Source of the DNA: Escherichia coli O127:H6 str. E2348/69
GTDB taxonomy: Bacteria; Pseudomonadota; Gammaproteobacteria; Enterobacterales; Enterobacteriaceae
Assembly: GCF_000026545.1 (NCBI RefSeq)
Contig: NC_011601.1
Length of the DNA stretch: 64,000 bases
Strand: one strand, 5' to 3'
Below are positions 57,301-60,300 of the stretch, piece after piece (position 1 is the stretch's first letter; each line of letters starts with the position of its first letter). The position numbers are program-made.

Positions 57301-60300
57301 TTCCCGTGATGGTTTTCGCTTTTAGCCATACGCCCATTATTTCTACGTTTGCCATAGACAGACGTGAAAAATATGGCGAACATGCTATGGATAAATGCAA
57401 AAAAATTATGAAAGTCGCTTATCTCATCATCTGCATAAGTGTATTGTTCTTTGTCTTTAGCTGCCTGCTTTCTATTCCACCTTCGTATATTGAAGCGGCT
57501 AAAGAAGAAGGGGTTACCATTTTATCGGCGCTTTCTATGCTGCCGAACGCCCCAGCATGGTTATCAATTTCCGGGATTATTGTCGCAGTAGTTGCGATGT
57601 CGAAATCATTCCTGGGTACGTACTTTGGCGTTATTGAAGGTGCCACAGAGGTCGTCAAAACAACATTACAGCAGGTTGGTGTAAAGAAAAGTCGTGCATT
57701 TAACCGCGCACTATCAATTATGTTGGTATCGCTGATTACCTTCATTGTTTGTTGCATTAACCCGAACGCGATTTCGATGATTTACGCGATCAGCGGCCCG
57801 CTCATTGCCATGATACTTTTCATCATGCCTACGCTGTCAACGTATCTCATCCCGGCGCTTAAACCCTGGCGTTCCATCGGAAATCTGATTACGCTGATCG
57901 TGGGTATCCTGTGCGTATCGGTAATGTTCTTTAGCTAATATCCGTTGTGGATGGTTCAAAATTGCTTCAATTTTGAACCATCCCAGTTTTCATAATGTTC
58001 ATTTGTTATTATTCCGCCCTATCACTTCTCTCGTAATATTATATAATTATAAGCTAGTTAAACACACAAAGAGTTCTGAACATCTTAAATAAGACTATTT
58101 AAGATACATGACGATTGCATTGCGTAAACGCTTTTTATTTACAAAAAATGGGGAAGTATTACGGCGATTGCGAAAAGTCTGAAGCGCTTGAATTAAGATA
58201 ATATAGAAAATCAGATACAACAAAAATGGCAGGTAGATGATGTGAAGATAAATTGGAGCGGGCGAAGGGAATCGAACCCTCGTATAGAGCTTGGGAAGCT
58301 CTCGTTCTACCATTGAACTACGCCCGCTTCGAGATGCGTAAGGCATTATAAACCTTACGCTCTCCTTAGCAAGTACCACGCTGCTGACTGCTGATTAATT
58401 CGCCATCAGCATTTTGGCTTGCTGCCCTGAGGCGGCAAGTAACGTAGCGGATCAATTGCCGTTGCACGGTAACGAATCTGGAAATGCAGGCGAACAGATG
58501 CCGCATCAGTGCTCCCCATAGTGGCGATTTTTTGCCCAGCTTTCACGCTTTGCCCATTATTTACCAGCATCGTGTCATTATGAGCGTAAGCCGTAATGTA
58601 ATCTTCACTGTGTTTAATCATGATGAGATTACCGTAGCCACGCAGCTGGTTGCCCACATACACCACCTTTCCTGCACCCGCGGCGTAAATAGGTGTACCT
58701 CGTGGAGCTGAGATATCAATCCCTTTATTGCCGCCATCTGCTGTCGAATACGGCATGATAACTTTCCCTGTCGTTGGCCATAACCAACAACGTTGCCCTA
58801 CTGGCGGCCAGGAAGATTTCGGTACCGCTGATGACGGTGTAACCGATGCGGTTTTGGTCGTTGATTTGGCGGTTGATTTACGTGTACTACTGCTACTTTT
58901 CGCCCCACCCAGTTTTAGTTTCTGACCTACTTCAATGGTGTAAGGGGGGGAAATGCCGTTCAGTCGCGCCAGTTCTTTTACGCTGGTTCCCGTGGTGCGC
59001 GAAATACGATATAGCGTATCCCCCCGTTTCACGGTGTAAACGGAGCCGGAATACGTTCCTGTATCGGATGATTTGCTACCCGAACAGCCCGCCAAAAGCA
59101 GCCCAACCGATAACAACATCACGATACCCAGAGATTTTTTATTCAGGCGTCCCGCACTCAAAATCTTTCCTCGCTTAAAAAACAAGACGCCATATCATAG
59201 CAGCCGGCTTCTGGATACCCAATCTCTTGCTTCTGGAAAAGCGATGTAATAGAGAAAGAGGTTAATTTCATTTGGCAAAGGGAAGTATCATCAGCAAAAT
59301 ATTTGCTGTAGTGGTATCGAAGTTCCTGACTTTTACCCTATTTCCCACCTTGATGCGTAATAATCCTAATTTATCACATTGATTTTATCGCCACTCATAT
59401 TGATACGTATCACTGTCCCTATTCAGAGTCCTGTTTCGTATCATATCTGTGTTTTTTTAACGTCATCACACTTCCTTCCTCCCCTCACGCATATAGTCGT
59501 TTCTGGCGTAATTCTTGCCTGCTAAGACTAAATCTTTGCCATAAGAACCAAATGTTCAAACCGAGGGGATTTCTATGGAAGCGCGGGAAGCAACCGCTAC
59601 GGGTGAATCATGCATGCGCGTCGATGCCATTGCTAAGGTCACCGGGCGGGCACGATATACTGACGATTATGTTATGGCGGGCATGTGTTACGCGAAATAT
59701 GTACGTAGCCCTATCGCACATGGTTATGCTGTAAGTATTAATGATGAACAAGCCAGGAGTTTGCCGGGCGTCCTGGCGATTTTTACCTGGGAAGATGTGC
59801 CAGAAATCCCATTCGCCACGGCAGGGCATGCCTGGACACTTGACGAAAACAAGCGCGATACCGCCGATCGCGCACTGCTAACTCGCCATGTTCGTCATCA
59901 TGGCGACGCCGTTGCCATCGTCGTGGCCCGCGATGAACTCACGGCAGAAAAAGCGGCGCAATTGGTCAGCATTGAGTGGCAAGAATTACCCGTTATCACC
60001 TCGCCAGAAGCGGCGCTGGCAGAAGACGCTGCACCAATCCATAACGGTGGCAATTTACTGAAACAAAGCACGATGTCGACGGGTAATGTCCAACAAACAA
60101 TCGATGCCGCCGACTACCAGGTACAGGGGCACTATCAGACTCCCGTTATTCAACATTGTCATATGGAAAGCGTGACATCGCTGGCATGGATGGAGGATGA
60201 CTCGCGAATTACCATCGTTTCCAGCACCCAGATCCCGCACATTGTTCGCCGCGTGGTTGGTCAGGCGCTGGATATTCCCTGGTCATGCGTACGAGTCATC

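What the first reader, a model, noticed from the sequence alone, without database searches (positions are those of the whole stretch)
57939..58253. No ETT2 island between yqeG and tRNA-Gly
yqeG ends at 57938 and tRNA-Gly begins at 58254, leaving only about 315 bp of AT-rich spacer. In K-12, as I recall, the roughly 20-30 kb ETT2 type III secretion remnant lies between yqeG and glyU. Together with the metV-adjacent operon and the IS50-like element this indicates a non-K-12 lineage. The spacer could be an ancestral empty site or a deletion scar.
Basis: partly seen in the sequence, partly recalled or inferred. Interest (0 to 1): 0.4.

Follow-up and report, generated by a model that had tools for sequence, protein, structure and literature searches.

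The report
Missing ETT2 island beside glyU tRNA
This 315-bp gap between yqeG and the glyU tRNA gene is where most E. coli carry the ETT2 type III secretion island; the window comes from EPEC strain E2348/69, whose lineage (phylogroup B2) is long known to lack the island, and the junction reads as an old healed deletion, so the feature is ordinary and already documented.

Summary
yqeG ends at 57938 and glyU (tRNA-Gly CCC, minus strand) occupies 58254-58327. The 315 bp between them are 31.7% G+C and hold no ETT2 gene. The window is identical to the chromosome of E. coli E2348/69, an EPEC strain placed in phylogroup B2 in the literature.

At the same place K-12 carries an 11.9-kb ETT2 remnant and O157:H7 carries 30.3 kb. 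The identical junction is found in 1,217 of 5,426 complete E. coli genomes. ETT2 absence from B2 is already published (Ren 2004, as cited in PMC7058095 and PMC9241512).

On "ancestral empty site or deletion scar", the evidence favours a scar:
- Both halves of the spacer are collinear with DNA that flanks ETT2 in island-bearing strains.
- The join cuts through a roughly 100-bp block conserved in K-12, O157, three non-coli Escherichia lineages and E. albertii.
- Outgroups carry ETT2 or independent remnants of it at this locus.
- There is no tRNA-derived repeat and no integrase to suggest site-specific excision.

This is a known feature with a small refinement of its history. Interest is low.

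The parts
56709..57938 (+). yqeG, an amino acid permease of 409 aa
   Evidence: ORF list. RefSeq annotation of the identical E2348/69 sequence gives WP_000065950.1. K-12, O157 and O121 carry the same protein accession.
57949..57992 (+). Intrinsic terminator of yqeG: a 16-bp perfect stem, a 3-nt loop and a T-rich tail
   Evidence: Terminator scan and inverted repeat I1. The hairpin is conserved in all Escherichia loci aligned.
57939..58109 (.). Left half of the spacer. It equals the first 171 bp of the yqeG-yqeH intergenic region of ETT2-bearing strains.
   Evidence: 91% identical to K-12 L001 16340-16510. Collinear with O157 L085 up to position 2158.
58082..58105 (.). Perfect palindrome ATCTTAAATA-AGAC-TATTTAAGAT, inside the retained left part (58075-58109) of a ~100-bp block conserved across the genus
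   Evidence: Inverted repeat I3. It is the only copy in the window, with 0 expected by chance. It is present in K-12, O121, L003 and E. albertii.
58105..58112 (.). The join (TACATGAC), 8 nt of ambiguous parentage. The left parent reads TGCATAAC and the right parent reads TACAAAAG.
   Evidence: The left and right BLAST alignments to O157 overlap at these 8 nt. Only 'GAC' (58110-58112) is unaccounted for against K-12.
58113..58253 (.). Right half of the spacer. It equals the 141 bp that lie between the ygeQ upstream region and the 3' end of glyU in ETT2-bearing strains.
   Evidence: Collinear with O157 L085 32118-32267 at 94% and with O121. 58113-58167 matches K-12 L001 28183-28238 at 98%.
58168..58244 (.). 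77-bp segment kept here and in O157 and O121 but deleted in K-12
   Evidence: Alignments.
58254..58327 (-). glyU, tRNA-Gly(CCC)
   Evidence: ARAGORN, Rfam RF00005 at 71.6 bits, and the RefSeq annotation.
58345..58372 (-). Sigma-70-like promoter upstream of glyU (TTGCTA, 16-nt spacer, TATAAT)
   Evidence: Consensus scan, 10 of 12 positions matched. This is a pattern match only, not shown to function.
58406..59161 (-). actS (ygeR), an amidase activator. It is the backbone gene on the far side of glyU.
   Evidence: RefSeq annotation of E2348/69 and the matching ORF.

Best explanation
The 315-bp spacer is the healed junction of one old deletion. That deletion removed the whole ETT2 type III secretion island, from yqeH through ygeQ, in an ancestor of the lineage that carries this junction; published surveys identify the ETT2-free lineage as phylogroup B2. 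The missing DNA corresponds to about 30 kb in O157:H7 and 11.7 kb in the already eroded K-12 copy.

The left break lies 171 bp after the yqeG stop codon, inside the conserved region upstream of yqeH. The right break lies 141 bp from the 3' end of glyU, about 90 bp upstream of the ygeQ start codon. The ends were joined by illegitimate recombination, with at most a few bases of imperfect microhomology, and not by an integrase.

What remains is non-coding:
- the yqeG terminator;
- the left third of a conserved block that contains a perfect palindrome;
- the DNA flanking the 3' end of glyU.

Shown here: the coordinates, the collinearity of both halves with island-bearing genomes, the shared junction in 1,217 genomes, and the presence of the lost sequence in outgroups. 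Inferred: the direction of change (loss rather than gain elsewhere), that it was a single event, and its timing at the base of B2.
For: 1. Both halves of the spacer are collinear with DNA that flanks ETT2 in island-bearing genomes. Window 57900-58112 matches O157 L085 1946-2158, and window 58105-58330 matches L085 32118-32344. The same holds for K-12 and O121.

2. The sequence that follows position 58109 in K-12, O157 and O121 (AACTTAGATTCGCAAGATATCTTCTGGTCATTCAAAAACAATTTGCGATATAGATATTC) also follows the same point in four other lineages: Escherichia sp. L004 and L005 (88-89% identical to the window), L003 (94%) and the E. albertii type strain L082 (85%).

3. The join cuts a continuous conserved block. 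For K-12 against L004, identity is 92% in the 38 columns kept in B2 and 87% in the next 63 columns, but only 49% in the 84 columns before the block.

4. Outgroups carry ETT2 parts at this locus. L004 has yqeH, yqeI, yqeJ and ygeH. The 1,341-bp spacer of E. albertii L082 holds yqeH-upstream DNA plus a 5' remnant of ygeQ. Ooka 2015 (PMC4700944) reports intact ETT2 at glyU in E. albertii and concludes that it was acquired before the split from E. coli.

5. Independent deletions at this locus are common and each has its own end points. O121:H19 retains yqeH' and 'ygeQ in 1,773 bp. L003 is joined at a GCGAT microhomology.

6. The O157 and K-12 loci contain no partial copy of the glyU 3' end, and no integrase is annotated in the O157 island.

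7. The same junction is present in 1,217 of 5,426 complete genomes, at 97% identity or more in the rows sampled. This fits a single inherited event.
Against: - Comparing B2 with K-12 alone cannot give direction, because any deletion looks like a clean empty site. Polarity rests on the outgroups and on the conserved block.
- Only one E. albertii locus and three other non-coli Escherichia loci were available. E. fergusonii, E. marmotae and E. ruysiae were not recovered.
- The DNA next to glyU differs between species. Homology between E. albertii and E. coli ends about 13 bp from the right break, so the right break may coincide with a true island boundary.
- Ren et al. 2004, as reported in PMC7058095, read B2 as never having acquired ETT2.
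- No ETT2 coding remnant survives in the spacer.
- Phylogroup membership of the 1,217 genomes was not typed here.
Confidence: 0.8

Rival explanations
1. Virgin site. The B2 lineage branched off before ETT2 arrived, so the spacer is the ancestral, never-occupied yqeG-glyU intergenic region. The other E. coli gained the island exactly between 58109 and 58113.
For: This is the published reading of Ren 2004, as summarised in PMC7058095 and PMC9241512. No ETT2 gene fragment remains in the spacer. The join is tidy, with only 3-8 ambiguous bases. More distant genera such as Huaxiibacter and Lelliottia have yqeG, glyU and actS close together without a T3SS.
Against: The putative island end just right of 58109 is present, with the same left junction, in E. 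albertii and in three non-coli Escherichia lineages. Its divergence tracks that of the flanks. It also forms one continuous conserved block with the DNA that B2 keeps. E. albertii carries ETT2 or its remnants at glyU. Because B2 is nested inside E. coli, absence in B2 then requires a loss. The genera that have yqeG close to glyU carry unrelated small genes in the gap, not this spacer.
Confidence: 0.12
2. Precise site-specific excision. ETT2 was an integrase-driven island in the glyU attachment site and left cleanly, restoring attB.
For: The island lies at the 3' side of a tRNA gene. glyU is used as an attachment site by some other element: a 36-bp fragment made of glyU flank plus the last 18 nt of the tRNA, followed by foreign DNA, sits on E. 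coli plasmids.
Against: The O157 and K-12 ETT2 loci have no partial copy of the tRNA 3' end, allowing up to 5 mismatches in 25 nt. No integrase is annotated in the 30-kb O157 island. The breaks lie 141 bp from the tRNA and inside a conserved block, not at repeats.
Confidence: 0.03
3. Allelic replacement. A B2 ancestor that carried ETT2 received the empty allele by homologous recombination, through yqeG and actS, from another ETT2-free Escherichia.
For: Recombination across flanking core genes is common in E. coli (general knowledge). Other ETT2-free alleles do exist, for example L003.
Against: The B2 flanks are 96-98% identical to those of K-12, O157 and O121, which is ordinary divergence within the species. 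The only other empty allele seen, L003, has a different join. This model still needs a deletion somewhere to create the allele.
Confidence: 0.05

Closest known systems
ETT2-negative glyU locus of phylogroup B2 E. coli (ST131 and other B2 strains; Ren et al. 2004, as cited in PMC7058095 and PMC9241512)
   Same: Same species and same locus. yqeG, glyU and actS are contiguous with no ETT2 gene. The identical junction is found in 1,217 of 5,426 complete genomes, including O25b:H4-ST131.
   Different: Nothing differs; this window is a member of that group. The only addition here is the base-level anatomy of the join, which points to loss rather than to the island never having been acquired.
ETT2 genomic island at glyU (O157:H7 Sakai ECs3703-ECs3737, EAEC 042; about 29.9 kb, 36.9% G+C)
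   Same: It occupies exactly the interval that is missing here. Its outer flanks match the two halves of the spacer. The O157 equivalent of the missing DNA has 37.5% G+C.
   Different: The island is entirely absent from the window.
ETT2 attrition isoforms (the K-12 remnant; O121:H19 yqeH'-'ygeQ; the E. albertii type-strain remnant)
   Same: All result from internal deletions at the same locus by illegitimate recombination.
   Different: Those keep recognisable gene fragments from one or both ends of the island. The B2 deletion removed every gene and kept only intergenic DNA at the edges.
Integrase-type tRNA-linked islands, such as the glyU-targeting element whose att-like junction is seen on plasmid pF1053-2
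   Same: They sit at the 3' side of a tRNA gene.
   Different: ETT2 shows no tRNA-derived direct repeat and no integrase. The B2 join is 141 bp away from the tRNA.

Membership tests
ETT2-negative (B2-type) yqeG-glyU locus | yqeG, glyU and actS are contiguous, with no ETT2 gene between them | tested here: met
   The 315-bp spacer has no ETT2 ORF. tblastn with YqeH, YqeI, YqeJ, YgeG, YgeH and YgeQ finds nothing in the identical E2348/69 locus L002.
ETT2-negative (B2-type) yqeG-glyU locus | The junction sequence is shared with other B2 genomes | tested here: met
   A 141-bp query spanning the junction is covered by at least 80% in 1,217 of 5,426 genomes. The 1-kb query is covered in 1,178 genomes, including O25b:H4-ST131.
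ETT2-negative (B2-type) yqeG-glyU locus | The host genome belongs to phylogroup B2 | not tested
   The window is identical to E2348/69, which the literature places in B2. Clermont markers lie outside the window and were not typed. The 1,217 genomes were not typed either.
ETT2 island (as a carrier) | Presence of T3SS genes (eiv, epa, epr) or the regulators yqeH, yqeI or ygeH next to glyU | tested here: not met
   None in the window. In contrast, 4,116 genomes have the yqeH end, 4,027 have the ygeQ end, and 1,308 have the sctV core.
Empty attB of an integrase-driven tRNA island | The occupied state shows a direct repeat of the tRNA 3' end at the distal island border | tested here: not met
   The only copy of the 25-nt glyU 3' end, allowing up to 5 mismatches, is the tRNA gene itself in the O157, K-12 and window sequences.
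Empty attB of an integrase-driven tRNA island | An integrase gene lies adjacent to the tRNA in the occupied state | tested here: not met
   No integrase is annotated in the O157 or K-12 ETT2 regions; only IS transposases are present.
Deletion scar (illegitimate recombination) | Sequence lost at the join is present in outgroups at the same position | tested here: met
   The 63-column right part of the conserved block is present in L003, L004, L005 and E. albertii L082 and absent only from B2.
Deletion scar (illegitimate recombination) | Short microhomology or filler bases at the join | tested here: inconclusive
   The 8-nt stretch TACATGAC matches the left parent at 6 of 8 positions and the right parent at 5 of 8. 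This is compatible with the model but not diagnostic. The independent L003 scar has a clear GCGAT microhomology.

The most novel reading that the evidence does not exclude
The ~100-bp block that the deletion cut through is centred on the perfect palindrome ATCTTAAATA-AGAC-TATTTAAGAT (58082-58105). It is conserved from E. coli to E. albertii far better than its surroundings. It could be a protein-binding control element whose retained half still acts in B2, for example on glyU or yqeG expression or on local chromosome structure, independently of ETT2. That would explain why the deletion end point stopped just 4 bp past it.
Probability: 0.1. Interest if true: 0.35.

Novelty: already known. Interest (0 to 1): 0.12.

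Why it matters
It matters little. Absence of ETT2 from phylogroup B2, and the E2348/69 genome itself, are long published. The locus is a convenient lineage marker.

The modest added value is the base-level reading of the join. It supports the view that ETT2 was already in the common ancestor of E. coli and E. albertii and was lost once in B2, as Ooka 2015 implies. It argues against the older view that B2 branched off before the island arrived (Ren 2004). That bears on how the history of this cryptic secretion system is told, but it opens no new biology.

Tried and rejected
- Ren et al. 2004 (PMC415751) is not held in the library. Its conclusions are taken second-hand from PMC7058095 and PMC9241512.
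- Rfam with permissive thresholds over 56000-60000 found only the tRNA.
- RNA folding of either strand of the spacer is no more stable than shuffled sequence, with z = +1.66 and +0.19. There is therefore no structured RNA, and no clear intrinsic terminator for glyU was found.
- A search for att-like partial tRNA copies found none.
- An early idea was that TTGCGA is a target-site duplication flanking the island. It was dropped once O121 and O157 showed that the right 141 bp are simply collinear and that the L003 join is a GCGAT microhomology deletion.
- A guess at the locus position in the phylogroup F strain IAI39 hit an unrelated region, because that genome is rearranged. It was not pursued, so presence of ETT2 in the sister groups of B2 was not checked directly.
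- The yqeG-based scan of species representatives did not return E. fergusonii, E. marmotae or E. ruysiae.
- The gaps in distant genera (Huaxiibacter, Lelliottia, Citrobacter, Salmonella) share no detectable similarity with the spacer. They cannot polarise the join.

Full report
**What is there.** The ORF at 56709-57938 (+, 409 aa) is yqeG. ARAGORN and Rfam place tRNA-Gly(CCC), glyU, at 58254-58327 on the minus strand, so its 3' end faces yqeG. Beyond it lie actS/ygeR (58406-59161, minus strand) and xdhABC. The 315 bp in between (57939-58253) are 31.7% G+C, against 50.6% for the window. This spacer contains the yqeG terminator hairpin (57949-57983 plus a T-run) and a perfect 10-bp-arm palindrome at 58082-58105. 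It has no credible ORF, no Rfam family other than the tRNA, and no RNA structure beyond what shuffled sequence gives.

**Where the window comes from.** A 1-kb query across the spacer is 100% identical to E. coli E2348/69 (NZ_CP059840.2). Direct comparison of the window with that record shows 0 mismatches over 49,956 + 12,401 bases. E2348/69 is the prototype EPEC O127:H6 strain, placed in phylogroup B2 in the literature; I did not type it here.
- The 'IS50-like element' is ISEc13, at about 51771-53322.
- The operon next to the three tRNA-Met genes is real: a PRD regulator, a PTS EIIC pseudogene, MalY, a KpsF/GutQ isomerase and a PGDH.

**Is the island normally here?** Yes.
- In K-12 MG1655, 11,907 bp separate the yqeG stop from glyU. 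This interval holds yqeH, yqeI, yqeJ, yqeK, ygeG, ygeH, ygeI, several pseudogenes, an IS2 and ygeQ.
- In O157:H7 the interval is 30,283 bp and holds the full set of T3SS genes, plus an ISEc8.

The '20-30 kb' figure fits the full island, not the K-12 remnant.

Among 5,426 complete E. coli genomes:

| Feature | Genomes |
|---|---|
| Same junction as the window | 1,217 |
| yqeH end of the island | 4,116 |
| ygeQ end of the island | 4,027 |
| sctV core gene | 1,308 |

The literature states that ETT2 is found throughout E. coli except in phylogroup B2 (Ren 2004, cited in PMC7058095, and PMC9241512). It also reports that ST131 (B2) carries no ETT2 element (PMC7058095).

**Anatomy of the join.**
- Left half: window 57939-58109 matches the first 171 bp after yqeG in K-12 (L001 16340-16510, 91%) and in O157.
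- Right half: window 58113-58253 matches, base for base, the 141 bp that lie between the ygeQ upstream region and glyU in O157 (L085 32118-32267, 94%) and in O121:H19.
- K-12 itself has lost 77 of those 141 bp (window 58168-58244), which is a derived K-12 deletion.
- Only 3 bases (GAC, 58110-58112) are unaccounted for. Taken more broadly, 8 bases (58105-58112) could derive from either parent.
- The missing DNA corresponds to K-12 L001 16511-28182 (11,672 bp) and to about 29.97 kb in O157, at 37.5% G+C.

**Empty site or scar?** Comparing B2 with an island-bearing E. coli cannot decide this, so I fetched yqeG loci from other species. Four observations favour loss in B2.

1. *The lost sequence is in the outgroups.* The sequence that follows window position 58109 in K-12, O157 and O121 also follows the same point in two Escherichia lineages that are 88-89% identical to the window (L004, L005), in one that is 94% identical (L003), and in the E. 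albertii type strain (L082, 85%).

2. *The join cuts a conserved block.* It falls in the middle of one continuous conserved block. For K-12 against L004, identity is 92% in the 38 columns that B2 keeps and 87% in the next 63 columns that B2 lacks, but only 49% in the 84 columns before the block. An insertion boundary would not be expected to sit inside a block that is conserved as a unit across species.

3. *The outgroups carry ETT2 parts at this locus.* L004 has yqeH, yqeI, yqeJ and ygeH. The 1,341-bp spacer of the E. albertii type strain consists of yqeH-upstream DNA plus a 5' remnant of ygeQ. Ooka et al. 2015 report intact ETT2 at glyU in E. albertii and conclude that it predates the split from E. 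coli (PMC4700944).

4. *Independent deletions of ETT2 are demonstrably frequent, each with its own end points.* O121:H19 keeps only yqeH' and 'ygeQ in 1,773 bp. L003 is joined at a 5-bp GCGAT microhomology.

**Site-specific excision is unlikely.** Neither O157 nor K-12 has a second, partial copy of the glyU 3' end. No integrase is annotated in the island. The breaks are 141 bp from the tRNA.

**Best explanation.** One illegitimate-recombination deletion removed yqeH through ygeQ in an ancestor of the B2 lineage, and the join has been inherited by the 1,217 genomes that share it. I put this at about 0.8.

**Caveats.**
- Few outgroup loci were available.
- The DNA next to glyU is lineage-specific, and E. 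albertii homology stops only about 13 bp from the right break. The right break may therefore coincide with a genuine island edge.
- The phylogroups of the 1,217 genomes were not typed.
- The classical reading (B2 never had the island) keeps about 0.12.

**Verdict.** This is a correct observation of a known, ordinary lineage feature. The only increment is a base-level argument that the B2 state is a loss. Interest is low.

Noticed in passing
window 58075-58109 (palindrome at 58082-58105); continues in K-12 as L001 16511-16575: A ~100-bp block with a perfect palindrome (ATCTTAAATA-AGAC-TATTTAAGAT) is conserved from E. coli to E. albertii, while the neighbouring intergenic DNA is only 35-50% identical. 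It lies about 290 bp upstream of yqeH. It may be a regulatory site; its function is unknown. B2 keeps only the left 35 bp.
   Followed up: partly
window 58168-58244, compared with K-12 L001 28238/28239: K-12 lacks 77 bp next to glyU that E2348/69, O157:H7 and O121:H19 all retain. This is a small derived deletion in the K-12 lineage.
   Followed up: yes
window 58236-58271; plasmid pF1053-2 (NZ_OY757951.1), L086 4001-4036: 58 plasmid places in E. coli carry a 36-bp fragment made of 18 bp of glyU flank plus the last 18 nt of glyU. In the one plasmid inspected (pF1053-2), the fragment is wedged between an IS1 end and foreign genes (DUF6998 and an HTH protein). It looks like the captured att junction of an element that integrates into glyU and was moved to plasmids by IS1.
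   Followed up: partly
window ~51771-53322: ISEc13 (IS4 family) with IS50-like ends (CTGTCTCTTGATCAGATC and CTGTCTCTTATACACAAATC). It is inserted in a terminator-like hairpin between araE and kduD and is flanked by a 9-10 bp direct repeat, GCCATGCGAC. K-12 does not have it at this site.
   Followed up: partly
window 11550-16779 (minus strand), next to tRNA-Met x3 at 11174-11470: A five-gene sugar-utilisation-like cluster lies between amiC and the metZWV tRNAs: a PRD regulator, a PTS EIIC with an internal stop (pseudogene), a MalY/PatB lyase, a KpsF/GutQ isomerase and a phosphoglycerate dehydrogenase.
   Followed up: no
L083 (E. coli O121:H19 16-9255) 35106-36878; L082 (E. albertii NBRC 107761) 956-2296: There are two further independent near-total deletions of ETT2. 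O121:H19 keeps only truncated yqeH and ygeQ in 1,773 bp. The E. albertii type strain keeps yqeH-upstream DNA plus a 5' fragment of ygeQ in 1,341 bp.
   Followed up: yes
L003 (Escherichia sp. MOD1-EC7003) 9284-9730 and beyond 12839: This 94%-identical relative also lacks kduD, kduI and most of yqeF upstream of yqeG. It has different DNA where xdhA should follow actS, so the whole neighbourhood is rearranged in that lineage.
   Followed up: no
window 56709-57938: The YqeG protein is identical (WP_000065950.1) in E2348/69, K-12, O157:H7 and O121:H19, although the gene differs by about 3% at the DNA level. This indicates strong purifying selection. The gene's G+C content (44%) is below the genome average.
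   Followed up: no
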